Position numbers and translations under genes: made by a program. The notes below the pieces were generated by a model that saw only the letters and a program-made list of their open reading frames with translations, did no database searches and had not been told where the DNA came from. Source: Myxococcota bacterium (lineage in GTDB: Bacteria > Myxococcota > UBA727 > VGSZ01). Taken from it: a DNA stretch of 64,000 nt. Positions 9,150 to 64,000 of the stretch are shown piece by piece. The stretch spans positions 6,418 through 70,417 of the forward strand of contig JBIKRQ010000001.1 in NCBI GenBank assembly GCA_044349155.1, written 5' to 3'. Positions within the stretch are counted from its first letter, which is position 1. Each line of letters begins with the position of its first letter.

Positions 9150-11126
<1,977 letters not shown>

Positions 11127-17846: not shown

Positions 17847-17847
17847 C

Positions 17848-18426: not shown

Positions 18427-18514
18427 CAGCTGACGCTGACAGGTCCGTTGTCGACACCGCGACTGATCCGTTGTGCTGTGGCTCACAACGTCTCGAAAAG
18501 CGGTGAGGTTTGCC

Positions 18515-23166: not shown

Positions 23167-23241
23167 GGGCTCGTAACTCAGCGGTAGAGTATTACCTTCA
23201 CACGGTAGGAGTCACAGGTTCGAATCCTGTCGGGCCCACCA
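23167..23241 (+). tRNA. tRNA-Val (anticodon CAC), CCA encoded
   Basis: Folded by hand. The 7-bp acceptor stem GGGCTCG/CGGGCCC has one G-U pair. The D arm is ACTC/GAGT. The anticodon stem TTACC/GGTAG carries the loop TTCACAC. The T arm is ACAGG-TTCGAAT-CCTGT. The discriminator is A and CCA follows. Confidence 0.9.
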
Positions 23242-23252
23242 AGTCGGCAAGA

Positions 23253-23278
23253 ACCCAGCGGCAACGCTGGGTTTTTTG
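23253..23278 (+). terminator. rho-independent terminator after tRNA-Val (8-bp stem, GCAA tetraloop, T-tract)
   Basis: acccagcg-gcaa-cgctgggt followed by tttttgtt. Confidence 0.8.
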
Positions 23279-23371
23279 TTGCCACCACGTCTACGTGAGC
23301 GGCTTTCACGATACGGCAGGTGGGCAGTCAACAGAGTTGCGGTGCCTGATCGCGGGTGCTATCGACCGAAC

Positions 23372-24157
23372 ATGCTACGGGGGGGCCCAGCACTCGCGCT
23401 TTGTGCGCTCACATTGTTCGGCTGCGACCGGTCGGTTGCGCCCGACCAGCGTCGTGCAGCCGAAAACGTCATTGGCAAGCTGCCCGCACCGATCCGCGAG
23501 CGGTTCGCCACCGCTGCCGGCCGCCGCGAGATGGAGCGCGCCCTCGACGACAAAGCGCTGCTTGTCGCCGAGGCTCGACGACACGAGTTTCACGAACGTC
23601 CAGACATTCGGACGGCCGTGCAAGAACTTGAGAACAAGTTGATTGTGCAAGCGCTGCTCGAACAAGAGCGCGCCACCGTTTCATCGACAGAGCCAGAACT
23701 TCGGGCGTACTACGACGCCCACCGCGCTGACTTTCGCTTGCCCGCGCGGCGTGAAACCTCGCGCATCCTCGTCGCTGACGCTGACCCAACCGCGGCGCAA
23801 CAGCGGATCGATGGCTTGAAGAAGCGCCTTGCTGCTGGTGAGCCGTTCGCGGTTGTGGCTGCTGCCGGAGACGGTGCCGAGCGCATCACATCGGGGCGCC
23901 TCGGGCACGTGAACCAAGCGCAGGAGGATCGCGCGCTCGCCGACGCTGTCTTCGCCGCCGAGGTGGGCAAGGTGGTTGGCCCGGTGCGCGTCCGCGACGG
24001 CCAGGCCCTGCTGCTGGTCACCGCCGTGCTGCCGGCGTCTGAGCAAGCTTTCGAGGCCGTCCGCGGCGTCGTCGAGAACAAGCTGCAGCCGACGCTGCAG
24101 CGTCGGTCGTTTGAACGTCTGGTGGAACGTCTGCGGACGGAGGCTGACCGTGAGTGA
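23372..24157 (+). CDS. parvulin-type peptidyl-prolyl cis-trans isomerase lipoprotein (SurA/PrsA-like), copy 1
   Basis: MLRGGPALALCALTLFGCDRS carries a lipobox. A SurA-N-like helical segment is followed by a parvulin-like core (RRETSRILV...GDGAERITSGRLGHV...VGKVVGPVRVRDGQALLLV). Its stop TGA at 24155..24157 overlaps the start of the giant gene. Confidence 0.65.
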   Translation: MLRGGPALALCALTLFGCDRSVAPDQRRAAENVIGKLPAPIRERFATAAGRREMERALDDKALLVAEARRHEFHERPDIRTAVQELENKLIVQALLEQERATVSSTEPELRAYYDAHRADFRLPARRETSRILVADADPTAAQQRIDGLKKRLAAGEPFAVVAAAGDGAERITSGRLGHVNQAQEDRALADAVFAAEVGKVVGPVRVRDGQALLLVTAVLPASEQAFEAVRGVVENKLQPTLQRRSFERLVERLRTEADRE

Positions 24158-27100
24158 TCGCCACGCAGGCCGGGGGGCCCTCGCGACGTTTGTGACGACG
24201 ACCATCGTTGCTGTTCTGTGTTGCTTCAGCAGCGCCACGTCGGCGGAGCCTGTCGGCGTCTCTGTTCGCCAACCGATACGCGTCGGTTCTTCCACCACCG
24301 TCGAGTTGAGCATCACCAGCAGCGGTGCCCAGGTCGCGGTGAGCGCGCACGGCGTCGACGCCGGTGGCGCCTTTGCCCAGGTTGATGGCGTGACCACCGC
24401 CGTCGACGCCAGCGGCGTGGCACGCCTCTCGTTGCCGTTGCTGCGTGCGTTTCCTGAAGGTGGGCGCCTCGATGTCGACATCGTCGATATCGATACCAGC
24501 GGTACCCGGAGCCCGGCTGTTCGGCGCACCTTCGACGCGAAGGCTGCTGGGCCCCGCTTCGACGCAGAGCCCGCCGTCGAGATCAGTGCCGGTGGTGTCG
24601 GCGTACGCTTGAGCCACCCTACCGACGTGGTCCTCAGTGACGTGCGCATTATCCTCGCCAGCGCCGAAGCGCTTCGTGGCGTCAATGGCGACTTGCAGCG
24701 CGCCGCCGCGTTGTCGGTGTTGTCCGTCGGCCGCGTCACGACCCCAACGCGCGTTGGCGCGACGTCGACATCGTCGTTCTTTCCGCTGCTCGAGAGCCGA
24801 TCGCTGCCTGCTGATGGTGTGGCGCTGGTAGAGGCGACGTTGAGCGACGCCTTTGGTCGCACGTCGAGCCGCTCGCTGGTGTCGTTCGTCGATACGGGGG
24901 CACTCGACCAGTTGCTCAGCTTGTCGATTGGTCAGGGTCCTGTGCTGCTGTCGGCGGGGTTTGGCCAGCGGCTCGCGCTGCCGGTGACGGGGCACTTTCT
25001 CATCGCCGGCGATGTCGACCTGCGCGGCGCCGAGTCGGGCGTCGTGTACACGTCGAGTGACATTGAGGTTGTCGCCGTCACCAGCGACGGCACCCTGGTC
25101 GCACGCAACAACGGCACAGCGACGGTGACGGCGCGGTTCGGCAGCGTTGAAGCCAGTGTCGACGTGATCGTGGACAGCACAGCAGAACTCGTGTCGTTGG
25201 CGATCGCCGCCGCAGACGGCGGGCCAGGCGCAACGATTGAGCTGCCACGAGCCGATGTCTCGCAACGCGTTCGACTGTTGGCGACCCTCAGCGACGACCG
25301 CATTGTCGACGTCAGCGACGCCAGCACCATCTGGGCCAGCAGCGCGCCGGGCATCGTTCGCGCCGATCCTGGAGCGTTGTTGGTGGCGCGTGCGCCAGGC
25401 GAGGCAACGGTCACCGCCACACTCGGGACGCTGCAGGGGAGTGCCCGCGTGGTCGTTCGCGACGGCGAGCCCACCATCACCGTGAGTGCCGCGCAAGCTG
25501 TGGCTGGTGAAGCCTTCGAAGTCACCGCCTACCCCGCCGACGACATTGGCGTCGAGCGCGTCACCTTCTTCATCAACGGCGTCCCTGCCAACGTGCTCGA
25601 AGCCGCCCCATGGACGATTCAGCTGCAAGCGCCACCACGGCCCGGTGCGCAGATCACCGTGGCCGCCGTCGTGACCGACACGGCGCAACAGCCGACCCGC
25701 AGCAGCGACGTCAATGTGTCTGTTGTTGCTGCTCCGGTACCGAGCGCCGTTGCTCTGTCGTTTGTGAAGCCGACGACCTCGAGCTTCCTGGTCGCGGGGC
25801 AGGGCACCACGCTGACGGTATCGGGGGGCTCGCAGCGCGGATTGCAGGCGGTCCGCTTCTACGCCGACGGGACACTCATTGGGACGTCGACAGCGGCACG
25901 TGTGGTCCTCGAGCCCGGCGTTGCAACCGCCGAACCGGTTCAACGGGTGCTGTGGGAAGTGGGCTACACGCCAGCGACGTCGTTGGCTGGTCGCGGCGTC
26001 GTGCTGCGCGCCGTTGGCGTGGAAGCGAGTGGTGCCGAGACTGCAGCGGCCGTCGTCGCTGTTCGCGTTCAGGCAGACACAACCGCGGCGATCGTGATGG
26101 CGGCGCCGCTGGCTTCGCCAGTGCAGGCAACCGTTGGGCGCGTGATGACCTTTAGCGGCACCATCGTCGACGACACGTTGGCGCTGGGGGCCCAACTCAC
26201 CCTTGTTGTCGATGAGCGCGACATCGCGTCGACGAACATCGTGGCGACGACAACAGATGGCAGCATCGCTGGCACGGCTCCGTTCGCTGTTCGCTTTGTT
26301 CCAACAGCGATCCGTCACGAGGTGAGCATCCGTGTCACCGACACGAACAACAAAGTGACATCGCGATCGTTCGTGGTGCTGACGACGACAGAACTCCCGC
26401 CCGAGGTGTTGATCCTGACGCCGGTTGTGGGTGCTTCGTTTGCTGTCGGGCAGCTGGTGCAACTCAGTGCGGCGATCGTCGACGAGAGCGCATCGACGAC
26501 GACGGTGCAGTGGTTCGTCAACGGCAGCCCTGTCGCCACCACAGACCCCACCGGCCTGACCGCGTCATTCCGCGCCGGCGTTGCGCAGGTTGGCGGACCG
26601 GTGACCATCGAGGCGCTCGCCACCGACGACACCGGCAACCCGCGACGTGCTGCGCGCGATATCAGCGTCGTGCCCGACACCAAGGTGCCGGTCGTGAACA
26701 TCGACAGCAGCCTTTCGCCCAGCGTTGTCGTCAACAACGACCTGTTGGTGACGGTCACCGGACAGGACGAAGGCGGCATCGACCGCTTTGAGTTGCTCGT
26801 CGACGACGTGCTGGTCGCGAGCACCAATGCCCCGGGTCAGGCTGGCGACCTCGACGTGGCGCATCTCCTCGTCCCCCGGGCGCAACTGGCTCGCCTCGGA
26901 GCGCACACGCTCAAGGCCCGTGCCTTCGACAAGGCGCAGAACCCGGGCGCATCCCCAGACGTGGCCATCTCGGTCGTCGCTGATGGCCCCCCTTCGGTGG
27001 CAATCGCCAACAACCGTCGGGTTGTCACCGGCAGCACCTTTACGCTGGAAGCAACAGCAAGCGACGACACCCGGGTCGTCGAGGTTGAACTCCAGTGCAA

Positions 27101-30100
27101 CGGCGTGACCACCGTTCGCACGGCGCCGCCCTACACGGCACCTTGCACAGCACCGCTTGCGCCAGGACCGCTCGAGGTTGTGGTCACGGCGCGCGATGCG
27201 ACGCATGCGACGACGGCGTCGAAGACGCTCGCGGTCGTTGCCGACACCAAAGAACCGTTGGTCTCGATCGCGCCCACATCGCTGTCGCCCCACTTCGTTG
27301 GGCGTCCGCTCACGGTTGAAGTGACTGCGAGCGACGACACCGCGGTCGCATCGATATCGCTCACCCTCGATGATGTTGTTCTTGGCCCGCCCCTCCGTCG
27401 TCGCATCGGTTTGTACGAGGTGGCGTCGTGGTCCTTGCCTGGCGCCACTTTCGCGAACGCCGGCCAGCGGCTGCTGGTCGCGAAGGTCGTCGACAGCAGC
27501 GGCAACCCCACCGAGCGGAGTTCGACGCTGTTGGTGGTGACTGATCGGGCGCCTGTCGTGACCATCACAGAGCCGGCGGGGCGGAGCATCCACAAGGAAG
27601 GCGACGACGTCACGATCGCCTGGAGTGCCAGCGACGATGACGGTCTCGTTGGTGCCGTCGGCGTCTCGGGCGGCGTTTTTCAGGGGGTTTTGCCAACCAC
27701 GACGACGCCGACCTCGTTGCGTGGTCAGCAGGTGACCGTGGTGCAAGGGCCGACACGCAGCGCCGAAGCGAGCGTCGGGATCGCTGCGAAGGACACCGCT
27801 GGTCAGGTCACGATCAAGACTGTTGACCTCACCATTCGCGCAGACCTGGAACCGCCGCAGGCCACGCTCGTGCAGCCTGCACTCAGCGCAACGCCGATCG
27901 TTGTCTACGCCGGTGGCGCCCTGGGCATGCGTGTTGAGGGCACCGACGACGTGCGCATCCAGCGGGTTGAGGTCGCCATCGACGGCGTGCCGCTGGCCTC
28001 GCTCGATCGCATTTCCGAAGTTCTCGAGACAACGCGCTTCCCCGACCCGTTTCAGCCGGGTCAGACGACGACGTCGAAGCTGCGTCGGAGCGTGTTTGGC
28101 GAAGTGGTCTCGCTCGCTGGGGTTGCGCAGGGGCCGCACACCCTCAAGACGACCGTCTACGACCTCGCGAACCCCGTGACGCTGCGCGAAGTGCAGATCG
28201 ATGTTCGTCCGTTCACCGACGACCAAAAGCCGGTGGCCACAATCGTGTTGTCGCCCACGCCCGACACCTGCGTTATCAACGCCACGATCGATGTTCGTGT
28301 GACCGCGACCGACAATGTTCGTGTCAGCAGCATGACTGCAACAATCGGCGGGGAACAACGCGAGGTCATCGGGGGAGATGCAACCTTCCCCTACGTCGTC
28401 GCCGGCCCCGTTGGTGCGCGCCGCTCGTTTTCACTGGTGGCTCGCGACGCTGCAGGAAATCAGGGCACCGCCTCGGCGTCGTGCCTCGTTGTCGCCGACG
28501 CCGCGCCGACGGTCGCTGTGACCACGCCGGCATCGGGCGACGTGGTGTACCCAATGGAGACCGTGAACGTCTCCAGCCGCGTGTTCGACGACCGTGGTGG
28601 CACTCGTACGTTTGCGTTCGCGGCGACGGCACTGCCGAGCGTGGTTGGTGGCGCCGTGGCGGTGGGGATCAGCAGCGCACAGCGGTCGCTTGCGATCGAC
28701 GCGGGCGGGGGCGGCGCCGACGTGTCGGTGAGCGCCGGCGTCGTGACGGTGGTGCCGCGTGGCGCCGTTGGGGAAGCGCCCCTGCGCGTGACGTTCGATG
28801 CACCGTCGCGGTGTTCGATCCACAGCGTGTGGCGTACGCGCCTTGGCGCTGACTCCAGTGCTTTGGCGACATTCGTTGAGCAAGCCGAAGCGCTCGCTGT
28901 CGAACACGATTGCCGTGGGTCTGTTGAACTCGACGTTCCCCACAACGACATCGACGTCGTTGCAGTGCAGGTCGACTTTAAAGACGGCGCGCAAGTAGAG
29001 GTTGGCTACGTCGATCGTGTTCCAAGCAGTGTTTCGTACGCCGATGGTGCGGACGCGTTGGCCGTGGCGCTGCGTGGGGCAACGGTGCTGGCGCCGACGA
29101 CGACGACCGTGTCGGCTCCGCTGCGCATCCCCGCAGCAGTCAGCCTGTTTGTTGGCACCGTGGCCATCGACGTTGTTGGTCAGAGCACGCTTGGGGTCAG
29201 CAGCATCTTCGTCGAAGAAGACGAGACCGCTCCGACCGTGACGATCGGCTCGCCGGTTGCGGGGCGCTCGTTCGTCGAGGGCTACGAGCTGCCGATCGAG
29301 GTGTCGTCGGTCGACCGGCTCGCCACAATTGACGTTAGCGTCCTCGTCAACAGCACCATCGAGTTGCCCGCTCGTTTCACAGCAGGCTCGGCCTGGGCGG
29401 CTGTGCATCTGCCATCGGTGCTCAAGCAGGAGCGCACACTGTCGATGGTCGCCACGGCCGTCGACGAAGCTGGCAACCGCAGCACATCGGCGCCTGTCGT
29501 CGTCAACATCGTTCCCGATGCGCGCCCCGCCATCGCATTCACCGAGCTGCGTTCGCCGGTTCAGAGCTATGATGAAGCGGCCTTGTCAGGTGGCGTCGTC
29601 GACATCTTGCAGGGGCAGCGTGTCGCAGTCGCTGCAACCTGTACGGACGACATCGGTGTGCAAACGGTGTCGGCCACGATCGACGGCACCGACCTGCCGC
29701 TGACCCGCTCGGGTTCGTCGGTGCAGATGGCGTGGGATGTGCCGCTGGGCGCTGACGGGACGCCTCACGTCCTCGTGGTCCGTGCAGGTGACGGCACGGC
29801 GTTCACAGAGCGTTCGCTGGTCCTCGTTGCCTTGGTGCCGAAGGCGCCAGTCCTTGGCATCGTCGCTCCGGCGGCCGAGCAGCCGTTGCCCGAAGGCAGC
29901 ATCCGCTTCGTCGTTGACGCGATCGCTGCCGACGACACCGAAGTCGCGGCGGTCGACGTGCTGCTCGACGGTCAGCTCGCGCTCACCATCGATCGCGGCG
30001 AGGCACTGTCGATCGGTGAGGTCGACGATGCGGGCGTCGCCAAAGCGACAGACGCCGCGACGCAAATGGTGCTCAACGAGATGGACCCGGAGCACCGCGA

Positions 30101-53726: not shown

Positions 53727-53738
53727 GCAGGAGAGAAT

Positions 53739-54935: not shown

Positions 54936-55657
54936 AACGAGCGGCGCTGCTCGCCCTGCTGGCCGCGGTGGGCTGCTCGGGTTCGGGCGGTCCGAACGTC
55001 GCCGGCACGCCTGTCACCCCGGCAGACCTCGCCCTCGCCGAGGGCGCTTCGGCGCGCGCGTCCCTCGTCGACGACCTGCTGCTGCTCCGCCACGCCAAAG
55101 ACACCGACGCGCTTACCGACCCCGAGCTGCAGGCCCGCCTGCACCGTGCTGAACGCCAGCTCGTTGCCCAGCACGTCACCGACACGCTCGGCAAAGACCT
55201 CGACGACGCCACGCTCCGCAAGGCCTTCGAGAGCGAGCGCGCCTCGCTCACCAAGCGTCGCATCCATGTCGCCCACATCGTGCTGCCCGTGGGCAACGAC
55301 GGCGAACTCGTGCTGGCGCGCCTGCGCAGCGGGGCAGCCTTCGCCGACATCGCCCGCGAGGTCTCGCTCGACGGGGCCACGGCCGAGCGCGGCGGCGAGC
55401 TGCCCGAATTGCTCGAGGGGCAGGTCGACCCGGCGTTCTTCGAGGCCGCCGCGGCCCTCAAGGTCGGCGAGGTCAGCAACGTCGTCGTGGTGGGGCCACA
55501 ACGACACATCATCACAGCACTCGCGGAGGCCGACACCGCGACGCCAACTTTCGAAGCAGCCAAAGACGCTCTGCGCGCGCGGCTGCACCAGCAACGTCGA
55601 GCCGAGCTGCTGACGACGCTGCGTGAGCGCTACGGTGTGAAGGCGGGGGATTTGTGA
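54926..55657 (+). CDS. parvulin-type peptidyl-prolyl cis-trans isomerase lipoprotein, copy 2
   Basis: GTG start (54926, or 54932 giving MKRAALLALLAAVGCSGS with a lipobox). The parvulin-like core is KRRIHVAHIVL...VGEVSNVVVVGPQRHIITAL. It overlaps the preceding gene's stop, and its own stop overlaps the GTG start of the next giant gene (GTGA). Confidence 0.6.
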   Translation: MPVKRAALLALLAAVGCSGSGGPNVAGTPVTPADLALAEGASARASLVDDLLLLRHAKDTDALTDPELQARLHRAERQLVAQHVTDTLGKDLDDATLRKAFESERASLTKRRIHVAHIVLPVGNDGELVLARLRSGAAFADIAREVSLDGATAERGGELPELLEGQVDPAFFEAAAALKVGEVSNVVVVGPQRHIITALAEADTATPTFEAAKDALRARLHQQRRAELLTTLRERYGVKAGDL

Positions 55658-58600
55658 ACCGGTACGTGCTCCTGGTGGTGGTCGCATTGTTGGCAGGCTC
55701 GCGCGTCGAGGCTGCCGCGAACCCGTGTGTGCCCAACAACACCGCGCCGGCGTGCGATCGCGACGCCGACGGCCTGACCAACGCGCAGGAAGCCACGTTC
55801 GGTACGAACCCGGTCGTCGCCGACACCGACGGCGACGGCGTCAAAGACGGGGTCGAGGCCTGGAGCGACAACGACGGCGACGGCAAGAACAACGCAATCG
55901 AATCAAAGATCCTCGACGCTGACGGCGACACCACCGCCGACCAGTTCGACGCCGCCGACGCCAACCCATGCGCGCCTGCGCTGTCGGCACCCACCTGCGA
56001 TCGCGACAACGATGGGCTCACCAACGCACGCGAACTCACCTTCGGCACCAGCAGCACCAATCCCGACACCGACGGCGACGGCGAGCGCGACGGGATTGAA
56101 GCTCCGCTCGATACCGATGGCGACGGCAAAAACGACGCCCGCGAATCGTCGCTGCTCGACGCCGACAGCGACGGCGTGGCCGACGAGACCGACCCGCAAA
56201 ACACCAACGCCTGCGTGCCCTCAAACCGCGCTGGCACCTGCGACGCCGACGGCGACGGCCTCACGAACGCGCGCGAAGCCACCTACGGCACAAACCCCGA
56301 CAACGTCGACACCGACGGCGACGGCCAGCCCGATGGCTGGGAGGCCGCCAGCGACGACGACCAGGACGGCAAGAACAACGCCCTCGAGAGCCGCACGAGT
56401 GACGTCGACGGCGACGGCACTCCCGATCAATGGGACGCTGCCGATGCTGACGCCTGCTTCCCTGACGCGATCTCGTCGCCGACATGCGATGTCGACCTGG
56501 ATGGCCTCACGTGGCTGCAAGAGCAGACCTTCGGCACAAACCCCACGCTCGCCGATACCGACGCCGACGCCGAACTCGACGGCCTCGAAGCCGCCCTCGA
56601 CACCGACCACGACGGCATCAACGACGCGCTCGAGTCCTCGATGGTCGACGCCGACCAGGACGGCCTGAGTGCCGAGGCCGAGCTCGACGACGGCGATGCC
56701 TGCCACCCCTTCGACCTCGCGGGCACCTGCGACTTCGACATGGACAGCCTCACCAACGCCGAAGAAGCCCACTTCGGCACCGACCCCAGAAACCACGACA
56801 CCGACGGCGATGGCGGCTGGGACGGCGATGTGGGCGAAGCGTTCTCCGACGACGACACCGACGGCATCAATGGTGCCCTTGAGTCCGACGACGTCGACAC
56901 CGATGGCGACCTGTACGTCGACGAATACGACCACGACAACGTCGACCCCTGCGTGCCCGATGCTGGATCACTTGCATGCCTCACCCTGCGCGCCGACACC
57001 GACAACGACGGCCTCACCGACGCGCGCGAGGTGCAGCTCGGCACCGATCCCGCCCGCGCCGACACCGACGACGACGGCCTGGGCGACGCGTACGAAGTCA
57101 CCACTGCGGCCTCGCCCCCCGACCACGATGGCGATGGCCTGATCGACGCGCGCGATCCCGACGACGACAACGACGGCGTGCTCACGAGTGCGGAGCGCGG
57201 CCCCGACCCGCTGTCACCGCGCGACAGCAACGGCGACGGCGTGCTCGACCACCTCGACCCCTGCTTCCCGACGGCGTGCGCAGAACCACTGCAGCCGCTG
57301 GCGTGCGCGGGCTTTGGCGACGTGTGCGAGCAGTGCCTCACCGCCGAGCTCGATGCCGAAATCACCAGCGCCGCTGGTGCCGAAGCCGGCCGCACCGACG
57401 CCGTGCAGTGCTTGTGCCGCGACGCGCGTTTCGTCGTGCCACACACCTTCGGCGCCACCGCACCCGTCGCTGCGGGTTCCGAAGCATCGCTGCAGTTCGA
57501 CAACGGCAACACCCTCACGCGCTGCACGTACCGCGCGGCCGACGACGTGTTCGCGTTCGTGTCGTGCCTGAGCACCGCCCCGGGAGCGATCGCCGCCGGC
57601 GACGAAGTGCCTGCCGACGCCGTGGGCCTGCGCATCGTCGATGCGCCCACCACAACCACCGTGGGCCTGGCCCTCGTCGACGCCCTCGCCCCGCCACCCA
57701 CGCTCGCGTTGTCGGTGCAGAACCCCGCGGGCGCTGTGGCCGACGGCAGCATCGTGCAAGGCCCCGTCACCGTCGCGTTGTCGACGAGCGGCGAAGATGT
57801 CTCGACGTTCTCGCTCAATGGCGAGCCGTTTGCGGGCGGCACCATCAGTGCCGAGGGCACGTGGTTGCTCAAGGCGAAAGCTGGTTGCGGCGCCACCGTC
57901 GTCGACGCGACGCATGCCTTCACCATCGACAACACCGCCCCAACAATTGAGATCACGGGCGCTGTCGACGGCGAGATCCGTCGCACCGCTGCCACGATTA
58001 CCATCGCCGCGACTGACGCATCAGCCGTGGTGCTCGAGGCCAGCATCGACGCCGAGCTCGCGGGCACCTCCACCGTCGTCGACACCGACGGCGCGCACAC
58101 CGTGATCGCCACCGCGACCGACGCCGCGGGCAACGTCACCACACGCACCCTGCACTTCACGCTCGACCAGACAGCGCCCACCATCGATGTCATCGCGCCG
58201 CTCGGCGGCAACGTCAGCAGCGCCACCGTCGACGTCAACGTCATCGCCACCGACGCGTTTGGCATCGCCGACGTGAGCGTGTCGGGCACCTCGTTGTTGC
58301 GGAGCGACAACGACCACTACCGCGGCACGGTCACGCTGGTCGCCGGCGACAACCTGCTGACCTTCGACGCCGTCGACGTCGCGGGCCACCACACCACCGC
58401 CGTTCGTCACGTCTTCTTCACCGCGGGTGGTGAAGGTGAAGGCGAGGGCGAGGGCGAAGGTGAAGGCGAGGGCGAGGGCGAGGGTGAAGGCGAAGGCGAA
58501 GGCGAAGGCGAAGGTGAGGGCGAAGGCGAAGGTGAAGGCGAAGGTGAAGGAGAGGGCGAAGGTGAAGGTGAGGGCGAAGGCGAAGGCGAAGGTGAGGGCG

Positions 58601-61600
58601 AAGGCGAAGGTGAAGGTGAGGGCGAAGGACAGCTCCTCGTCTCGCTGAGCAGCCCAGCAGCGTCGTCGATTGTCGCCGATGCCACCATCACGGTCAGCGG
58701 TGCGATCAGCGGCGGTCGTGCGCCCTACACGGCGACCATCAACGGCTTGCCTGCCACCGTCGTGGGCAGGGGCTTTCAGCTCACGTTTGCACCGCCCGAG
58801 GGCCCACTGCATCTCGACGTCGAGGTGCGCAGCGGCACCGACACGGCCTCCGCCACGCGCGACCTCACCATCGACCGCACAGCACCCTCCGTCGAGGTCA
58901 CGAGCCCGATCGAGGGCGTTGTCGTGCAGAGCAATGTGCTGCTGGTCAACGCCACCGTGGGCGACTTGCATCTCGAGCGCGTGACGGTGAACGGTGACGA
59001 CGTCGTCGTGGTCGCCGGCACCGTCGCGCAGCAGGTGCTGTTGGTCCCGGGGCTCAACACCATCACGGTGCGCGCCGTCGATGTCGCCCACAACGTCACG
59101 CTCGTCGAGCGCCATGTGGTCTTCAGTCCGGTGCCGCCGCGCGTGCAGATCGTGGCACCCGCCCCCGATGCCACGCTGTACACCACGCCAACGCGCGTGC
59201 GCGCCACGGTGTCGTCGTCGTCGCCCATCGCCACAGTCACCATGAACGGTGTGGCCGCCGACAATGCTGGTGGTGTGTACGAGGCCGACGTTCCTCTCGT
59301 CGCGGGCAGCAACACCATCACCTTCGTCGCCACCGACAGCCTGGGCGCCCAAACCACGGCCACCACCACGGTCAGCTACGTCGATGGCAGCACCCAGCCC
59401 CTCACGGTGTCGCTGCTGTCGCCCGACGTCGACGCCGCCGACGTCGAGCCCGACACGTTGATCAGCCTCGGCTTCAGCAAGCCGGTCCTGTCGTCGTCGG
59501 TGGCCAGCGCTGTGCGCCTGTTGGTCAACGGCAACGCGGTTGATTTCAGCGTGTCGACGTCGCCCGACGGCTTGATGGCGTCGCTCATCCCGCAGCGTCC
59601 GCTCAGCGAGAAGGCGCGCGTCGTCGTGCGCGTCAGCGGGCTCGAGAGTGAAACCCCGCCGTCGCAGCAGGGTGGCTTCGAGGGCACGTTCACAGTGCGC
59701 GCGCCGCTCACCGGTGTGGTGGGCGTGGTGCTCGACGAAGACCTCCGGCCCGTGGTGGGCGCGCGCGTCGTCATCGAGGGCACAAGCCACACCGCGGTGA
59801 CGGGTTCTGACGGCCACTGGGGTGTGCTCGACCTCGAGGCCAACGCCTATCGTCTGCACATCTCGGCACCGGGCGAGGAGCAGCCGCTCACGGCGTTCCG
59901 TCCGCAGATCGTTGTCGAGCCCGAGCAGGTGAACACGGTTGGCCCGCACATCCTGCAGGTCATCGATCGCAGCTCAGCCGTGTTTGTCGACGCCACCGAG
60001 CCGCTCAACGCCAGCTTCGGCGGCGCGAGTGTGGGCTTCGGCGTGCACCAAACCGAGCCCCTCGGCATCGCCTTCACCGACGGCAGCACGCGCGGCCAGC
60101 TCACGGTCACAAAGGTGCCAACGCACTCGTTGCCACACGCCATCGACGGGCGCATCGGTTCGCCAGTGCTGTGGAGTGTGCAGCCGCAGGGCACGCAGTT
60201 CACAAAGCCCAGCACGCTGCACTTCCCGAACACCAGCGGTCTCGCGGCGGGTCACGTGGTGATTGTCTACGCCCTCGACGACGCCAGCGCGCGCATCGTG
60301 CCGCGTGTGTTGGCGCGCGTGAGTGCCGACGCGAGTCACATCGTCGCCGACAAGCCCATCACGGGCGTGCTCGACATCGTGGGCTACCAGCCGCTCACCA
60401 CCGAGCAAGAGCAGCAGGTGTTGGGCACAGCACCGGGCACGCAGGGCGCCTGGCTCGACGACGTGCGCAACGCCGTGCTGCCAAGTGCCCACGCACAGTT
60501 CCTCAACGGTCTCGACTTCACGATGCCGTCGCCACCATCGCCAACGCCCACAGCACTCACGGGCAGGGTGAAATACATCTCGCGCACAGCAGGCCAGGCG
60601 GGCGAGACGGGCATCGGAATTCCGAACGTCCTCGTCTCGGACGTGAACGACGATTCGCGCATCACGGGCCCGACGGGTGGCTTCGGCTTCGTCGTCAACC
60701 TCACCGGTCAGCTCACCGAAATCGTGACCGCGGAAATTGCCCTCGGCACGTTCCCGGTCGCGCACGTCGACGCCGAGGGCCGTCGCCGCATCGTCATGGT
60801 GCAGAGCCGCTTGTACGCGCGCTCACCGGTGTTCGACATGTTGCCGGGCGCCGTGTTCAACACGAGCGTTCTCGTCGACGCGCAGGTGTTGCGCGGCAAG
60901 GTCACCTTCGTCGACCACGAAGGCAAAGTGCTGCCACCGATCGTCACCGGCGGCGAGACCGCGCGCGACGAGCAGGGCGAGCTCACGGCCATCTCGAGTG
61001 CCGACGCTTCAACAACGGAAGTCCACTTCTTCAAAGCCGACGACCACACCCGCGCGATTGCGAAGTACTCGATCGTTGCCCCCGTCGTGGGCTCGACGAC
61101 AACCCATGGTTCTTACGCCCGTTTGCGCTTCGGGCCGCGCGACCTGGCGAAGGCCGAACGCGTGCGCGCCGGCATCGGCGATGCGCGTGTGATTCGCGAG
61201 GGTGACGAGGTCATGGTCTTCGCCATCAACCACGCCACCGGCTACGCGGGCATGACGACTGTGAAGGTGCCCGACTACGGCAACGAGGCGGCGCGTATCA
61301 CCGACATCGTCGAGATCGTGGGCGACATCAAGCTCTTCCCGCCCGAGATCGAAGTGGCCGTCGAACGTCAGTTCACCGCGCAAGGCGTGAAGTCGACGTT
61401 GCCGCCGTCGAAGGTTCGGCAAGGCGGGCTTGCAACACGTCAAGATGATTGGCTCAAGGTCGCGACGCGTTGGCGCGTGCGGCTCGCACCGGCAGTTGAA
61501 GATGACCTCGTCGATGGCGGGCTGCGCGGCCCGCTCGATCCGCGCATTGATGCCGGTGTGCTGACCACCGAGGTTCGCACCGATGCCGGCGAACCAACGG

Positions 61601-64000
61601 CATTGCTCGATGAAGGAGCCGCAGGCGGACTCCTCGAGCGGTCGTGTGCGGAACTTGGAGAAGACGCGTCGCTGCGCGAACAACTGGAATGTCTGAACGA
61701 TGAACGAACCTTGACGGCGGTGCCTGAAGGCGTGCCGCCGCTTGCTGCGCGTCTTGTGCATCTGTCGGCAGCAGCGTCGACGGACACGCTGTTTCACATC
61801 ACCGGTGGCACCACCCTGACACCACAGGTCTTTCATGCAGCCCGACGGCTCGAAAGCGGCTCACAGCTGCAGGTCACCGAAGGCGTTCACCTGGTGCATG
61901 TTGTTGGGCGACAGATGCAATTCGCCGACGCCGACAACGACGGCGAGTTGAGCGTCGCTGAATCCATCGTGGGTACGGCCTGTCGAGAAGTTGAAGGCGG
62001 GTTCGCGTGCAGCGCGCCAATTCAGCCGAGCGACGCAGTGCTCGTCACCGGTGCGCCAGACTTCCGCGACGACGCAACACTCCGGGGCTTCCCCAGGCAA
62101 GCGATTGCGGTGAAGGCCTTGTACGACGCGAACCTCCGTGACGAGGCCAAGGGCGCGCGAAAGGTGCAGGCCTACGATCGCGTTCGCGAACATCGTTTTC
62201 GCATCGCTTCGCTGATCGGCAACGACGTGCGCGCTGGCGCCAACGAGTCTTCAACGCGGAACCTGAGCGACGAGAAGGAGCCACAAGCGGACGACCAGGA
62301 TGCCTTCATCGGGCTTTCCCTGTTCTTGAACGACGTCGGACGAGGGGAGCGCGCCGGCGCGCGCTCCGACTTCGAGGTTCGTCTTGGCACTGACGCTTCG
62401 GGTGTTGAGTGCGATTGGCACATCGATCAGCAGTCGCAGGCCGTCACCGCCGATTGCGACAGCGAGTACCTGCCGGAGATCATCAGCGCGAACGACCTCG
62501 TCTACGTCGAGCTCTTTGAGCGCAGCAACAGCGCCAATGTGCTGTACCGCTTCAACTTTTACGGCGTCTCGACGCGCGTTGACCATGCGTCTGCCACGAC
62601 GACCCAAACGCTTGAACGTGCTGTCCCCGACGACCGGAGCCAGTTCGTGCGGTTGAACCGTGCGCCACACAGCAAGCTGAACAAAGCCATCTTTGCGATC
62701 AGCGAGCACCTGTTTACCGGCAACACGGCCGCGCTTGAGTTGCGCGCTGGCGACACCGTTGTCCGCCGCATCAACGTCACTCGCGCCAACGGCGAGGTTG
62801 CGATTGTCGGCGACCCGACCGACGGGTGGCAGGCACCCATCGTGCTTTTCAAGGAGCAAGTCGGTGCGACTCGCTACGCAGAAATGGACCTGCCAGCGTG
62901 GGTCACCTCGATGCTGGCGCGGGTGAACGCGCCGGCGTTGTCGCTCTCGGCGCGCTCGCCAACGGGAACAACAACGATCGCCATGGGTCGTGCGATGGGT
63001 CGCATCGAGAGTCGCGCAGCGCGGCCACCAGGTCACCGCGTCTTCAACGACCTCGACATGATCGACGGACGCTTGTCGTTCACCGATGTCGATATTGATG
63101 TGCCCGAGCGCGGCGCGCGCGTTCAGTTTGTGCGGACGTACAACAACCAGAACAACGAGGTGGGCAGCCTCGGCGTCGGGTTCACGCACAACCACGAAGC
63201 CTTCGTTGTCGAGGAGACACGGCTTGTCGAGGCCGCTGTCATTGGCCGCTACTCGGTTGTCGTCGGTGGGCAGCAGCTCACCTTCCCCGAATGTCAACAC
63301 AACACGCGCTGCGCCAGCGACAAGAGCATGGACGCGACGCTGACGGTGACCGACACCATCGTCGGTACCTTGAAGGCAACACTCGAGGACCACGGCTCTG
63401 GTCGGATTCTCACGTTCGAGCGGCCCGCAATGGCTGGCACAGACGAGCTGAAGGACAAGACCTGGTTGTCGTCGATCGACGACGGGCTCAACGGCAAGAT
63501 CCGCTACAGCTACAGCGGCCAGAACGAACTCGCATCGGTCGCGCGCGACAACGGCCTGGTCCGCATGGAGTTCACGTACGACACGCTCGACGTCTCTCCG
63601 CTGACACATTCGAAGCTCCGCGAGCAGATCGAACTGTTCGGCCTCAAACGCCTCGCGTCCGTCACGGTCAAGCATGGCGACACCGAGATTGAGAAGGTCG
63701 TTTTCTCGCACGACACGGGCGGCACCTCATGCGCGTCGTCGCTGTCGCGCGAACCGCAGGTGATGAAGCTGAACCTGCTGCTCGCTGCCTGTCGACCGCT
63801 ACGCGCCCCGATGCCGGAGTGGCACTTCGTGTACGAGCGCATTCCAGGCGATGTCACGCTGCCAACGAAGCAGCTCTTGCTGGCGAACGAGTTGAAGTCG
63901 CGCGAACTCCACGTCAATGGCGGTGCGCTTTACAGCAGCTGGAAGTACACCCACGCGACCGGCGACGAGTTCAAGGTTGTTCCCCACCTCACGCGCGGCG
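55654..64000 (+). CDS. second giant secreted protein, 3'-partial (>2,782 aa in window): TSP3-like Ca-binding repeats, Ig-like domains, (GE)n linker, CarboxypepD_reg-like domain, RHS/YD-repeat onset
   Basis: It is not in the ORF track because there is no stop before the window end. The frame was verified by hand at 55654, 57001, 58420, 59401, 60001, 61981, 63001 and 63961. GTG 55654 follows a TGA at 55624 in the same frame. Signal peptide MNRYVLLVVVALLAGSRVEAAA. There are seven repeats of C-x-P-x(4-6)-C-D-x-D-x-DGLTNA-x-E-x(3)-GTNP-x(3)-DTDGDG-x(2)-DG-x-E. Near the end are VQFVRTYNNQNNEVGSLGVGFTHNHE and IRYSYSGQNELASVARDNGLVRMEFTYD, which are the RHS/YD onset. Confidence 0.75.
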   Translation, partial: MNRYVLLVVVALLAGSRVEAAANPCVPNNTAPACDRDADGLTNAQEATFGTNPVVADTDGDGVKDGVEAWSDNDGDGKNNAIESKILDADGDTTADQFDAADANPCAPALSAPTCDRDNDGLTNARELTFGTSSTNPDTDGDGERDGIEAPLDTDGDGKNDARESSLLDADSDGVADETDPQNTNACVPSNRAGTCDADGDGLTNAREATYGTNPDNVDTDGDGQPDGWEAASDDDQDGKNNALESRTSDVDGDGTPDQWDAADADACFPDAISSPTCDVDLDGLTWLQEQTFGTNPTLADTDADAELDGLEAALDTDHDGINDALESSMVDADQDGLSAEAELDDGDACHPFDLAGTCDFDMDSLTNAEEAHFGTDPRNHDTDGDGGWDGDVGEAFSDDDTDGINGALESDDVDTDGDLYVDEYDHDNVDPCVPDAGSLACLTLRADTDNDGLTDAREVQLGTDPARADTDDDGLGDAYEVTTAASPPDHDGDGLIDARDPDDDNDGVLTSAERGPDPLSPRDSNGDGVLDHLDPCFPTACAEPLQPLACAGFGDVCEQCLTAELDAEITSAAGAEAGRTDAVQCLCRDARFVVPHTFGATAPVAAGSEASLQFDNGNTLTRCTYRAADDVFAFVSCLSTAPGAIAAGDEVPADAVGLRIVDAPTTTTVGLALVDALAPPPTLALSVQNPAGAVADGSIVQGPVTVALSTSGEDVSTFSLNGEPFAGGTISAEGTWLLKAKAGCGATVVDATHAFTIDNTAPTIEITGAVDGEIRRTAATITIAATDASAVVLEASIDAELAGTSTVVDTDGAHTVIATATDAAGNVTTRTLHFTLDQTAPTIDVIAPLGGNVSSATVDVNVIATDAFGIADVSVSGTSLLRSDNDHYRGTVTLVAGDNLLTFDAVDVAGHHTTAVRHVFFTAGGEGEGEGEGEGEGEGEGEGEGEGEGEGEGEGEGEGEGEGEGEGEGEGEGEGEGEGEGEGEGEGEGEGQLLVSLSSPAASSIVADATITVSGAISGGRAPYTATINGLPATVVGRGFQLTFAPPEGPLHLDVEVRSGTDTASATRDLTIDRTAPSVEVTSPIEGVVVQSNVLLVNATVGDLHLERVTVNGDDVVVVAGTVAQQVLLVPGLNTITVRAVDVAHNVTLVERHVVFSPVPPRVQIVAPAPDATLYTTPTRVRATVSSSSPIATVTMNGVAADNAGGVYEADVPLVAGSNTITFVATDSLGAQTTATTTVSYVDGSTQPLTVSLLSPDVDAADVEPDTLISLGFSKPVLSSSVASAVRLLVNGNAVDFSVSTSPDGLMASLIPQRPLSEKARVVVRVSGLESETPPSQQGGFEGTFTVRAPLTGVVGVVLDEDLRPVVGARVVIEGTSHTAVTGSDGHWGVLDLEANAYRLHISAPGEEQPLTAFRPQIVVEPEQVNTVGPHILQVIDRSSAVFVDATEPLNASFGGASVGFGVHQTEPLGIAFTDGSTRGQLTVTKVPTHSLPHAIDGRIGSPVLWSVQPQGTQFTKPSTLHFPNTSGLAAGHVVIVYALDDASARIVPRVLARVSADASHIVADKPITGVLDIVGYQPLTTEQEQQVLGTAPGTQGAWLDDVRNAVLPSAHAQFLNGLDFTMPSPPSPTPTALTGRVKYISRTAGQAGETGIGIPNVLVSDVNDDSRITGPTGGFGFVVNLTGQLTEIVTAEIALGTFPVAHVDAEGRRRIVMVQSRLYARSPVFDMLPGAVFNTSVLVDAQVLRGKVTFVDHEGKVLPPIVTGGETARDEQGELTAISSADASTTEVHFFKADDHTRAIAKYSIVAPVVGSTTTHGSYARLRFGPRDLAKAERVRAGIGDARVIREGDEVMVFAINHATGYAGMTTVKVPDYGNEAARITDIVEIVGDIKLFPPEIEVAVERQFTAQGVKSTLPPSKVRQGGLATRQDDWLKVATRWRVRLAPAVEDDLVDGGLRGPLDPRIDAGVLTTEVRTDAGEPTALLDEGAAGGLLERSCAELGEDASLREQLECLNDERTLTAVPEGVPPLAARLVHLSAAASTDTLFHITGGTTLTPQVFHAARRLESGSQLQVTEGVHLVHVVGRQMQFADADNDGELSVAESIVGTACREVEGGFACSAPIQPSDAVLVTGAPDFRDDATLRGFPRQAIAVKALYDANLRDEAKGARKVQAYDRVREHRFRIASLIGNDVRAGANESSTRNLSDEKEPQADDQDAFIGLSLFLNDVGRGERAGARSDFEVRLGTDASGVECDWHIDQQSQAVTADCDSEYLPEIISANDLVYVELFERSNSANVLYRFNFYGVSTRVDHASATTTQTLERAVPDDRSQFVRLNRAPHSKLNKAIFAISEHLFTGNTAALELRAGDTVVRRINVTRANGEVAIVGDPTDGWQAPIVLFKEQVGATRYAEMDLPAWVTSMLARVNAPALSLSARSPTGTTTIAMGRAMGRIESRAARPPGHRVFNDLDMIDGRLSFTDVDIDVPERGARVQFVRTYNNQNNEVGSLGVGFTHNHEAFVVEETRLVEAAVIGRYSVVVGGQQLTFPECQHNTRCASDKSMDATLTVTDTIVGTLKATLEDHGSGRILTFERPAMAGTDELKDKTWLSSIDDGLNGKIRYSYSGQNELASVARDNGLVRMEFTYDTLDVSPLTHSKLREQIELFGLKRLASVTVKHGDTEIEKVVFSHDTGGTSCASSLSREPQVMKLNLLLAACRPLRAPMPEWHFVYERIPGDVTLPTKQLLLANELKSRELHVNGGALYSSWKYTHATGDEFKVVPHLTRG
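58429..58629 (+). repeat. hexanucleotide (GGY GAR)n microsatellite encoding a perfect (Gly-Glu)~33 dipeptide run inside the second giant CDS
   Basis: ggtgaaggtgaaggcgagggcgag... read directly. The antisense frame reads (PS)n and the +1 frame reads (KVKA)n, which explains shadow ORFs 58407..58691- and 58427..58648+. Confidence 0.9.

What the first reader, a model, noticed from the sequence alone, without database searches (positions are those of the whole stretch)
23167..64000. Tandem [parvulin-lipoprotein -> giant secreted protein] modules, each translationally coupled, directly downstream of tRNA-Val
Two separate parvulin-type PPIase lipoproteins (23372..24157 and 54926..55657) each sit immediately upstream of a giant secreted protein, with overlapping stop/start codons. 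The first overlap is GTGAGTGA at 24150..24157 with a GGAGG SD. The second is GTGA at 55654..55657. A Gly-rich beta-helix-like protein lies between the two pairs.

A small periplasmic foldase fused in operon with a ~10,000-aa substrate, and the same arrangement repeated a second time, suggests dedicated chaperone/foldase-client pairs for export and folding of giant multidomain surface proteins. I am not aware of this being an established system.

The tRNA-Val with its own terminator marks the 5' boundary of the locus.
Basis: partly seen in the sequence, partly recalled or inferred. Interest (0 to 1): 0.8.

Follow-up and report, generated by a model that had tools for sequence, protein, structure and literature searches.

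The report
Parvulin chaperone genes coupled to giant proteins
A five-gene operon in a myxobacterial genome pairs two small membrane-anchored folding helpers with two enormous secreted proteins, and the pairing recurs across related bacteria, so each giant probably has its own chaperone; the idea has precedents and is untested here.

Summary
Downstream of tRNA-Val(CAC) and its terminator lie five tightly packed + strand genes:
- parvulin lipoprotein 1 (261 aa)
- a 9,858-aa Ig-domain protein
- a 398-aa Gly-rich beta-helix protein
- parvulin lipoprotein 2 (241 aa)
- an RHS-type protein (4,520 aa in public assemblies, cut off by the window end)

Both small proteins pass Pfam Rotamase thresholds and resemble PrsA/PEB4/SurA-like chaperones.

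Both pairings are conserved:
- Parvulin-1 relatives at 39-57% identity sit directly upstream of colinear orthologues of giant 1 in Myxococcota, while the flanking genes differ.
- Parvulin-2 relatives at 34-95% identity precede giant-2 relatives.
- Only 1 of 31 generic parvulin loci has a giant gene downstream, and that one is itself a parvulin-2 relative.

The two modules are not duplicates of each other. The parvulins share 24% identity and the giants are of different kinds. Parvulin 1 belongs to a subfamily that lacks both active-site histidines, so it is probably a holdase. The Gly-rich protein goes with giant 1.

The best reading is client-dedicated periplasmic chaperones. Function is inferred, not shown. 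Precedents exist: PrtM-PrtP in Lactococcus, and a conserved Rotamase_2 gene near Omnitrophota giant genes. I rate it a new variant of a known kind, of moderate interest.

The parts
23167..23241 (+). tRNA-Val (anticodon CAC)
   Evidence: ARAGORN. The same tRNA precedes the orthologous operon in L016 (two copies) and in the near-identical contigs L001 and L002. It is absent from the other relatives.
23246..23283 (+). Intrinsic terminator-like hairpin with T-run after the tRNA
   Evidence: RNA fold gives -24.5 kcal/mol, z = -4.3, and 0 of 200 shuffles fold as well. The consensus terminator scan missed it.
23372..24157 (+). Parvulin 1: a 261-aa PrsA/PEB4-like lipoprotein of a subfamily that lacks the active-site histidines
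   Evidence: - Pfam Rotamase_2 5.6e-18.
- The family profile hits PEB4 (3rfw) at 1.2e-13, and also HP0175, PrsA and SurA.
- The AF2 model has N-terminal helices, a parvulin domain and C-terminal helices. Foldseek's top hits are PEB4, HP0175 and PrsA.
- The signal peptide MLRGGPALALCALTLFGC carries a lipobox (read from sequence).
- Arg131 and Leu213 replace the two conserved histidines. The same holds in 54 of 56 family representatives.
24139..24143 (+). GGAGG Shine-Dalgarno, 6 nt before the giant 1 start
   Evidence: Read directly from the sequence.
24150..53726 (+). Giant 1: a 9,858-aa secreted array of Ig-like domains
   Evidence: - ORF listing and translation.
- Domain content: Big_7 in the N-terminal third, TIG and Big_5 in the middle, Big_5 plus TSP3 near the C-terminus, and CoaZ repeats.
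- N-terminal signal-peptide-like sequence.
- 581 prolines.
- Colinear orthologues (31-48% identity from residue 1) follow parvulin-1 relatives in L003, L007, L012-L016 and L018.
53397..53723 (+). C-terminal tail of giant 1: four QPTVVRF...GTFAS repeats, then ATPPVCVNGSNLDGLQCK
   Evidence: Translation. The tail is conserved in L021 and L022. An analogous repeat tail is present in the Verrucomicrobia protein that precedes a homologue of the Gly-rich protein.
53739..54935 (+). Gly-rich 398-aa protein: right-handed beta-helix plus a C-terminal Ig/FN3-like domain; probable partner of giant 1
   Evidence: - No Pfam or NCBIfam match.
- 968 homologues, all without a Pfam domain.
- AF2 model with pLDDT 86.6.
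- It follows a giant-1-like C-terminus in Verrucomicrobia loci L019 and L020.
54932..55657 (+). Parvulin 2: a 241-aa PrsA-like lipoprotein that keeps the active-site histidines
   Evidence: - Rotamase_3 3.3e-12 and Rotamase 1.8e-11.
- Best solved relatives are PrsA proteins (6vj4 at 4e-11), with AHIVL and RHII aligned to the PrsA histidines.
- H115 and H192 are invariant in the family alignments. One more distant parvulin-2-like gene, in L024, has Gln at the first position.
- Signal peptide MKRAALLALLAAVGC.
- The 241-aa product is the one on record.
- The start forms a GTGA overlap with the upstream stop.
55654..64000 (+). Giant 2, 5' part (2,782 of 4,520 aa): a secreted RHS-type protein
   Evidence: - Signal peptide, TSP3/CglD-like calcium-binding repeats, Glucodextran_B, CarboxypepD_reg and Big_5 domains.
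- Full length of 4,520 aa in GCA_041445565.1.
- Relatives follow parvulin-2 relatives in L021 (86% identity), L022 (53%) and L024 (30%).
63055..63216 (+). DUF6531 domain of giant 2 (residues 2468-2521), the domain that usually precedes an RHS repeat shell
   Evidence: Pfam PF20148 at 6.9e-7 and 2.5e-7. The same domain occurs in the L024 relative. YD-like repeats follow it.

Best explanation
This is one operon that starts after the tRNA-Val terminator. It encodes two giant Sec-exported proteins, and each is preceded by its own PrsA/PEB4-like parvulin lipoprotein.

The proposed mechanism has four steps, all inferred:
1. Each parvulin is made first from the same mRNA, through overlapping stop and start codons.
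2. It is lipid-anchored at a membrane facing the periplasm.
3. It engages the giant polypeptide as that emerges from SecYEG. This takes minutes for a 9,858-aa chain with 581 prolines.
4. It keeps the chain soluble and protease-resistant and helps domain-by-domain folding or hand-over to an unknown surface-export route.

Parvulin 1 has lost both active-site histidines, so it most likely acts as a holdase-type chaperone. Parvulin 2 keeps them and may also isomerise prolines in the RHS-type giant 2. The Gly-rich beta-helix protein belongs functionally with giant 1, and specifically with its C-terminal tail.

Shown here: the protein families, the gene coupling, conservation of both pairs, and their specificity compared with other parvulin genes. 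Inferred: lipidation, periplasmic location, binding, and chaperone dependence.
For: Family identity:
- Pfam and PDB matches for both parvulins.
- Structural architecture of parvulin 1.

Coupling:
- There are 4-8 nt overlaps or gaps of at most 29 nt at 16 of 16 parvulin-to-downstream-gene junctions across all loci.

Conservation of pair 1:
- Parvulin-1 relatives at 39-57% identity are followed by colinear orthologues of giant 1 in L003, L007, L012-L016 and L018. These include the complete genome CP120527.1.
- The upstream genes differ between loci: Mu transposase, HSP70, Fe-S protein, unknowns.

Conservation of pair 2:
- L021, L022 and L024 keep parvulin-2 relatives (95%, 58%, 34% identity) next to giant-2 relatives (86%, 53%, 30% identity).
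- In L024 a parvulin-1-like and a parvulin-2-like gene sit in tandem before a giant-2-like gene, so the linkage survives rearrangement.
- Nucleotide identity to L021 jumps from 42-75% to 93-98% close to the start of parvulin 2. This suggests that parvulin 2 plus giant 2 are exchanged as a unit.

Specificity:
- Only 1 of 31 generic parvulin loci (L024 itself) has a downstream ORF longer than 450 aa (Fisher test).

Precedents:
- PrtM is a parvulin lipoprotein chaperone specific for PrtP and encoded with it (PMC3307742).
- A Rotamase_2 PPIase is conserved upstream of Omnitrophota giant genes.
Against: - There is no experimental or expression evidence. No sigma-70-like promoter was found, and operon structure is inferred only from spacing.
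- Conserved adjacency among related Myxococcota partly reflects shared descent.
- A 30%-identical parvulin (L006) is not next to a giant gene.
- Parvulin 1 lacks the histidine pair. However, a Pin1 H59L/H157L mutant keeps activity (PMC2678132), so neither activity nor inactivity can be read from sequence.
- The best-studied parallel in a diderm argues for caution. Par27 binds FHA, yet FHA secretion is unaffected in a par27 mutant (PMC8151025).
- Translational coupling implies roughly equal synthesis, which is odd for one small chaperone serving about 100 domains.
- No outer-membrane export machinery is visible near the operon.
Confidence: 0.6

Rival explanations
1. The parvulin-like lipoproteins are structural adaptors rather than folding factors. 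They bind a terminus of the giant protein. They either tether it to the membrane or deliver it to an export or anchoring machine, having kept the PrsA/PEB4 scaffold only as a peptide-binding module.
For: - The parvulin-1 subfamily has lost both active-site histidines in 54 of 56 representatives.
- One-to-one translational coupling suits a stoichiometric partner better than a catalyst.
- Neither giant protein shows a recognisable membrane anchor or sorting signal of its own.
Against: - The whole-length similarity is to bona fide chaperones: PEB4, HP0175, PrsA and SurA.
- Parvulin 2 keeps the catalytic residues.
- No binding data exist.
Confidence: 0.15
2. They are general periplasmic chaperones with broad clientele. 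They are placed in this operon only so that chaperone supply rises when a very large secretory load is expressed. This would be co-regulation without client specificity.
For: - PrsA, SurA and PEB4 are broad-spectrum chaperones.
- Related Myxococcota loci carry an additional canonical parvulin lipoprotein, divergently oriented next to the operon. This suggests a local pool of paralogous chaperones.
Against: - Two different parvulin subfamilies each track a different giant-protein family over 30-95% sequence identity.
- Parvulin 2 plus giant 2 appear to have been exchanged together.
- The parvulin-1 type forms a distinct subfamily with its own sequence signature.
Confidence: 0.17
3. The adjacency has no functional meaning. 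It is inherited synteny within one bacterial lineage, and stop/start overlaps are common in compact high-GC operons.
For: - All loci with the pairing are Myxococcota or unclassified metagenome contigs related to them.
- 4-nt overlaps are frequent in bacterial operons (general knowledge).
Against: - Flanking genes are not conserved while the pair is.
- The pairing holds for two unrelated parvulin/giant families.
- It persists in the rearranged L024 locus.
- An independent phylum shows a Rotamase_2 gene conserved near giant genes.
Confidence: 0.06

Closest known systems
PrtM-PrtP of Lactococcus lactis (a PrsA-family maturation lipoprotein and its cell-envelope proteinase)
   Same: A parvulin-family lipoprotein chaperone that is specific for one large secreted protein and is encoded next to it (PMC3307742).
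   Different: - PrtM-PrtP is from a Gram-positive organism and plasmid-borne. My recollection that the two genes are divergent rather than translationally coupled was not checked here.
- The client is about 5 times smaller (from memory) and is a protease.
- Here the setting is a diderm periplasm, the clients are about 1 MDa and 0.5 MDa, and there are two different parvulin subfamilies, one without the histidine pair.
Rotamase_2 PPIase conserved upstream of Omnitrophota giant genes (West-Roberts et al., bioRxiv 10.1101/2023.11.21.568195)
   Same: A Rotamase_2-domain PPIase gene is conserved next to giant (>10,000 aa) genes.
   Different: - In Omnitrophota the PPIase is one member of a locus of more than 10 type II / type IV pilus-like secretion genes that precedes the giant gene.
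- Here the parvulin gene directly abuts the giant gene and no secretion locus is adjacent. There are only two prepilin-type genes about 5 kb upstream on the other strand.
- The phylum is different, and sequence relatedness was not tested.
PEB4/Cbf2 (Campylobacter), HP0175 (Helicobacter), PrsA (Firmicutes) and SurA: SurA-like parvulin chaperones
   Same: They share the architecture of helical chaperone domain, parvulin domain and C-terminal helix. They are the best sequence and fold matches.
   Different: - Those are general chaperones that are not linked to one client gene.
- Identity is only 13-16% in the structural alignments.
- Parvulin 1 lacks the histidine pair that those proteins keep (alignments).
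Par27 of Bordetella pertussis and filamentous haemagglutinin (FHA)
   Same: A periplasmic parvulin chaperone that binds a very large Sec-exported surface protein in a diderm (PMC8151025).
   Different: - That review does not describe par27 as genetically linked to fhaB.
- FHA secretion is unaffected in a par27 mutant.
- FHA uses a TpsB transporter. No such gene is seen here.
Sec-dependent RHS/YD-repeat polymorphic toxins (for giant 2)
   Same: An N-terminal signal peptide, a long decorated N-terminal region, then DUF6531 followed by YD-like repeats.
   Different: - The RHS shell, C-terminal toxin and immunity gene lie beyond the window and were not seen.
- A dedicated parvulin gene upstream is not a described feature of RHS loci, to my knowledge.

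Membership tests
Parvulin-type PPIase (Pfam Rotamase / Rotamase_2 / Rotamase_3) | HMM match above the curated gathering score | tested here: met
   Parvulin 1 scores Rotamase_2 66.3 bits (cut-off 27), Rotamase 32.5 (21.7) and Rotamase_3 28.2 (22.5). Parvulin 2 scores Rotamase_3 47.4, Rotamase 45.3 and Rotamase_2 36.2.
Parvulin-type PPIase (Pfam Rotamase / Rotamase_2 / Rotamase_3) | [quoted passage not shown] | tested here: not met
   This row refers to parvulin 1. It has Arg131 and Leu213 at the aligned positions, and the same substitutions occur in 54 of 56 family representatives. Parvulin 2 does meet this feature (H115 and H192).
Parvulin-type PPIase (Pfam Rotamase / Rotamase_2 / Rotamase_3) | Measurable cis-trans isomerase activity | not testable with these tools
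   This needs a protease-coupled Suc-AXPF-pNA assay on purified proteins.
PrsA/PEB4/SurA-like chaperone | Parvulin domain embedded between N-terminal helices and a C-terminal helix that together form the chaperone module | tested here: met
   - Full-length profile alignment to PEB4 and HP0175.
- The AF2 secondary structure shows helices 24-121, an alpha/beta parvulin domain at 126-220 and helices 227-260 (pLDDT 71.8).
- Foldseek gives probability 1.00 to PEB4, HP0175, LIC12922 and PrsA over about 250 columns. TM-scores are low (0.2-0.35) because the domain orientation is uncertain.
PrsA/PEB4/SurA-like chaperone | Lipoprotein signal peptide (PrsA/PrtM type) | tested here: inconclusive
   - Lipobox-like motifs LFGC (Cys18) and AVGC (Cys15) follow a basic N-region and a hydrophobic stretch.
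- The Cys is invariant in the parvulin-2 family (C15). The parvulin-1 relatives with a complete N-terminus each have a Cys near that position.
- No dedicated predictor was available and lipidation is untested.
Dedicated foldase-client pair (PrtM-PrtP type) | Foldase gene conserved next to the client gene | tested here: met
   against the background measured.
Dedicated foldase-client pair (PrtM-PrtP type) | Client maturation or stability depends on the foldase | not testable with these tools
   This needs gene deletion and proteomics in a cultivable carrier.
RHS/YD-repeat toxin (giant 2) | DUF6531 domain preceding the repeat shell | tested here: met
   PF20148 at residues 2468-2521. It is also present in the L024 relative.
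RHS/YD-repeat toxin (giant 2) | RHS repeat shell, RHS core motif and variable C-terminal toxin with an immunity gene | tested here: inconclusive
   Only about 260 aa follow DUF6531 inside the window. No Pfam RHS_repeat hit was found at E <= 0.1, although YD-like repeats can be seen by eye. The remaining 1,738 aa could not be fetched.
Type I-secreted RTX giant adhesin (considered for giant 1) | No N-terminal signal peptide; C-terminal RTX repeats; adjacent ABC transporter, MFP and TolC genes | tested here: not met
   - Giant 1 has an N-terminal signal-peptide-like sequence.
- No RTX or HemolysinCabind hits were found.
- No transporter genes are present in the window.
Omnitrophota-type giant-gene locus | Type II / type IV pilus-like secretion locus directly preceding the giant gene, together with a Rotamase_2 PPIase | tested here: not met
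   The Rotamase_2 gene is present. The upstream genes, however, are a lipase-like lipoprotein, a cobalamin adenosyltransferase, a 5-FTHF cyclo-ligase and tyrS. Only two prepilin-type genes lie about 5 kb away on the opposite strand.

The most novel reading that the evidence does not exclude
Myxococcota, and perhaps other phyla, may have evolved client-specific PrsA-like lipoprotein 'pilot chaperones' for megadalton secreted proteins. One lineage, the Arg-for-His parvulin-1 type with at least 54 clusters at 50% identity, would have given up isomerase chemistry to become a dedicated holdase. In addition, giant 1's repeated C-terminal tail and the Pfam-less Gly-rich beta-helix protein (about 970 homologues, also found in Verrucomicrobia next to a similar tail) would form a previously undescribed cross-phylum anchoring or export module for giant surface proteins.
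Probability: 0.25. Interest if true: 0.7.

Novelty: new variant of a known kind. Interest (0 to 1): 0.55.

Why it matters
How bacteria keep proteins of 5,000-10,000 residues soluble and correctly folded while they thread through the Sec channel into the periplasm is largely unknown. A conserved, translationally coupled chaperone gene in front of such proteins gives a concrete, genetically tractable handle on that question: delete one small gene and watch one giant protein. A complete-genome isolate that carries the parvulin-1/giant-1 pair already exists.

The finding also defines a histidine-less parvulin subfamily with a probable client. It suggests that RHS-type toxins can travel with their own foldase. 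It flags a large uncharacterised beta-helix family linked to the C-termini of giant proteins.

It is not a new principle. Dedicated parvulin chaperones (PrtM) and PPIase genes near giant genes (Omnitrophota) have already been described.

Tried and rejected
Ideas considered and rejected or left open:
- **Tandem duplication of one module.** Rejected. The parvulins share 24% identity (E = 0.12) and the giants belong to different families.
- **Giant 1 as a type I-secreted RTX adhesin.** Rejected. It has a signal peptide, no RTX repeats and no transporter genes nearby.
- **Genomic island integrated at tRNA-Val.** Not supported but not excluded. GC content is flat at 0.63-0.69 across the window. The upstream genes are housekeeping (dapA, dapB, tyrS). 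The 3' end of the locus lies outside the window. tRNA-Val recurs upstream only in L016.

Searches that gave little or nothing:
- The exact look-up of the 243-aa version of parvulin 2 found nothing, because public gene calls use the 241-aa start.
It was repeated with A4.
- A viral-contig scan for the Gly-rich family returned nothing.
- The AlphaFold-database fold library was unavailable.
- Promoter scans found no sigma-70-like sites. The terminator scan missed the tRNA terminator, which folding then confirmed.
- The C-terminal 1,738 aa of giant 2 and the 3' ends of the giant-1 orthologues could not be retrieved, because of sample-file size or the 10-kb flank limit.

Full report
**Anatomy**

The window has uniformly high GC content (0.63-0.69). 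tRNA-Val(CAC) lies at 23167-23241. A stable hairpin and T-run follow it. After a 90-nt gap, five + strand genes follow with almost no intergenic DNA:
- Parvulin 1, 23372-24157.
- Giant 1, 24150-53726. It overlaps parvulin 1 by 8 nt (GTGAGTGA), with GGAGG 6 nt upstream of its start.
- A Gly-rich gene, 53739-54935. It starts 12 nt after the giant 1 stop and has an AGGAG upstream.
- Parvulin 2, 54932-55657, overlapping the Gly-rich gene stop at GTGA.
- Giant 2, from 55654 (GTGA overlap) to beyond the window end.

Public gene calls on the same sequence agree with this layout. The source is a metagenome-assembled genome: JGI 3300059473 and GCA_041445565.1. Those calls give giant 2 a full length of 4,520 aa.

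The upstream genes are ordinary: a VolA/Pla-1-like lipase lipoprotein, a cobalamin adenosyltransferase, a 5-FTHF cyclo-ligase, tyrS, two prepilin-type genes, dapB and dapA.

**The small proteins**

Both pass the Pfam gathering scores for the three Rotamase families. Both start with a basic, hydrophobic, lipobox-Cys signal: LFGC in parvulin 1 and AVGC in parvulin 2.

Parvulin 2 aligns best with PrsA foldases. It keeps both active-site histidines and the S-x-D...GGEL segment. H115 and H192 are invariant in its family alignments, although one more distant relative, in L024, has Gln at the first position.

A profile of the parvulin 1 family aligns over its whole length with the SurA-like chaperones PEB4 and HP0175, then with PrsA and SurA. 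A medium-confidence AF2 model has the expected layout of helices, parvulin domain and helices. Foldseek returns the same proteins.

In parvulin 1 the two histidines are replaced by Arg131 and Leu213. This substitution holds:
- in all ten parvulin-1-type sequences aligned;
- in 54 of 56 single-module representatives found by an exhaustive HMMER search.

The literature describes these histidines as highly conserved. It also reports that a Pin1 double His-to-Leu mutant keeps activity (PMC2678132). I therefore infer, but cannot show, that parvulin 1 is mainly a chaperone.

The two parvulins are only 24% identical. They are old paralogues, not a recent duplication.

**The giant proteins**

Giant 1 (9,858 aa) has an N-terminal signal-peptide-like sequence and is essentially a chain of Ig-like domains:
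- Big_7 domains in the first third;
- TIG and Big_5 domains in the middle;
- Big_5 plus TSP3 calcium-binding repeats near the end.

There is no RTX, autotransporter or known sorting domain. It contains 581 prolines. It ends in four short QPTVVRF...GTFAS repeats and a Cys-x10-Cys motif.

Giant 2 also has a signal peptide. It then carries CglD-like TSP3 repeats, Glucodextran_B, CarboxypepD_reg and Big_5 domains, and DUF6531 at residues 2468-2521, followed by YD-like repeats. That is the N-terminal organisation of an RHS-type toxin. The shell and the toxin lie outside the window, so this assignment is incomplete.

**Conservation of pair 1**

The closest parvulin-1 homologues (55-57% identity) are each followed by a giant ORF with a 1-8 nt overlap. 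One of these loci has a Mu-like transposase upstream instead of the tRNA.

A scan of 185,579 species genomes found seven Myxococcota loci at 39-44% identity. They include a Hyalangium MAG and the complete genome of Myxococcaceae bacterium GXIMD 01537.
- Wherever downstream DNA exists, a giant ORF follows and runs off the 10-kb flank.
- These ORFs are colinear orthologues of giant 1 from the first residues, at 31-48% identity over 2,300-3,350 aa.
- The upstream genes differ between loci: HSP70, an Fe-S protein, unknowns.
- One locus has a trypsin-like protease gene inserted between the parvulin and the giant.
- A 30%-identical homologue lies in an unrelated context.

**Conservation of pair 2**

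Contigs carrying orthologues of the Gly-rich protein at 46-54% identity show the same order: giant 1 tail, Gly-rich gene, parvulin, giant 2. The parvulin is 58-95% identical to parvulin 2, the giant is 53-86% identical to giant 2, and the GTGA overlap is kept.

A metagenome scan returned 80 parvulin loci. Its second-best hit, L024 (34% identity), is followed by an ORF of at least 3,337 aa. That ORF is 30% identical to giant 2 over about 2,000 aa and contains DUF6531. In L024 a parvulin-1-like gene sits immediately upstream of the parvulin-2-like gene. A third, canonical parvulin lipoprotein is encoded divergently next to them. That third gene is also present in six of the Myxococcota loci.

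Of 31 loci from the same scan that have at least 2.5 kb of downstream DNA, the other 30 have a next ORF of at most 433 aa. Giant linkage is therefore a property of these two subfamilies and not of parvulin genes in general (with the caveat that the loci are not phylogenetically independent).

All 16 parvulin-to-downstream-gene junctions examined are overlaps or gaps of at most 29 nt.

**Modularity**

Nucleotide identity between the window and L021 follows this pattern:
- 42-75% across the giant 1 tail and the Gly-rich gene;
- 93-98% from about 54,800-55,000 through parvulin 2;
- lower across the repetitive start of giant 2;
- 85-95% over the rest of giant 2.

This looks like a recombination breakpoint at a module boundary. 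It implies that parvulin 2 and giant 2 travel together.

**The Gly-rich protein**

The Gly-rich protein groups with giant 1. It has 968 homologues, none with a Pfam domain. A confident AF2 model (pLDDT 86.6) shows a right-handed beta-helix plus an Ig/FN3-like domain. Its structural similarity to TPS domains, ice-binding proteins and bactofilin is only generic.

In a Verrucomicrobia MAG, a homologue follows a 1,596-aa protein. The last 300 residues of that protein align with giant 1 residues 9482-9780, and it ends in comparable short repeats.

**Interpretation**

The comparative evidence supports two chaperone-client modules in one operon. The function is inferred from the families involved and from precedent.

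Precedents in favour:
- PrtM is a parvulin lipoprotein chaperone specific for PrtP and encoded with it (PMC3307742).
- Omnitrophota giant genes are preceded by a conserved Rotamase_2 PPIase within a secretion locus.

Reasons for caution:
- Par27 binds FHA but is dispensable for its secretion (PMC8151025).
- No promoter, transcript or protein data exist here.
- No outer-membrane export route is visible near the operon.

**Verdict**

The finding is a real, conserved and specific gene linkage. It extends a known idea to megadalton periplasmic clients and to a histidine-less parvulin subfamily. I rate it a new variant of a known kind, with moderate interest (0.55).

Noticed in passing
window 53739-54935; L019 7064-8218; L020 3183-4337: The Gly-rich beta-helix protein belongs to a family of about 970 proteins with no Pfam domain. 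Members occur in Verrucomicrobia, Planctomycetota and other groups. In a Verrucomicrobia MAG it again follows a large protein whose C-terminal 300 aa and short repeat tail resemble those of giant 1. This may be a conserved two-gene module.
   Followed up: partly
window 53397-53723: Giant 1 ends in four QPTVVRF-x8-GTFAS repeats followed by ATPPVCVNGSNLDGLQCK. The tail is conserved in L021 and L022 and matches no known sorting signal.
   Followed up: partly
window about 54781-55013, compared with L021: Nucleotide identity jumps sharply from 42-75% to 93-98% at the boundary between the Gly-rich gene and parvulin 2. This suggests recombination or transfer of the parvulin 2 plus giant 2 block.
   Followed up: yes
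L016 8666-9640 (-); L024 7676-8653 (-); also L012, L013, L017, L018: A third, canonical parvulin lipoprotein that keeps the histidines is encoded divergently, immediately upstream of the parvulin-1-like gene, in several Myxococcota loci. It is absent from the window.
   Followed up: partly
L024 8706-20619: A parvulin-1-like gene and a parvulin-2-like gene sit in tandem directly upstream of a giant-2-like ORF of at least 3,337 aa that contains DUF6531.
   Followed up: yes
L013 7487-9106: A trypsin-like protease gene with a PPC domain is inserted between the parvulin-1 orthologue and the giant-1 orthologue.
   Followed up: no
L016 7908-8112: Two tRNA-Val(CAC) genes lie upstream of the orthologous operon in the complete genome CP120527.1. 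This echoes the tRNA-Val in the window. Other relatives lack it.
   Followed up: partly
window 13074-18486 (- strand): Two prepilin-type (GFxxxE) genes at 17382-17846 and 17848-18486 lie next to a 1,311-aa ORF with no family match (13074-17009). This could be a minor-pilin or pseudopilin cluster with a large tip protein.
   Followed up: partly
window 21132-23054 (- strand): A 640-aa lipobox-bearing protein with partial similarity to VolA/Pla-1 phospholipases lies divergent from the tRNA-Val and the operon.
   Followed up: no
Protein-representative hits, e.g. P0175, P0182, P0196: Proteins of 520-650 aa match the parvulin-1 profile in two or more stretches. They are either fused tandem parvulin-chaperone modules or merged gene calls.
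   Followed up: no
window 8670-11126: An 818-aa protein has an MJ0042-type zinc ribbon and C-terminal TPR repeats. It shows a weak GltJ-like (gliding motility) match, consistent with a myxobacterial origin.
   Followed up: no
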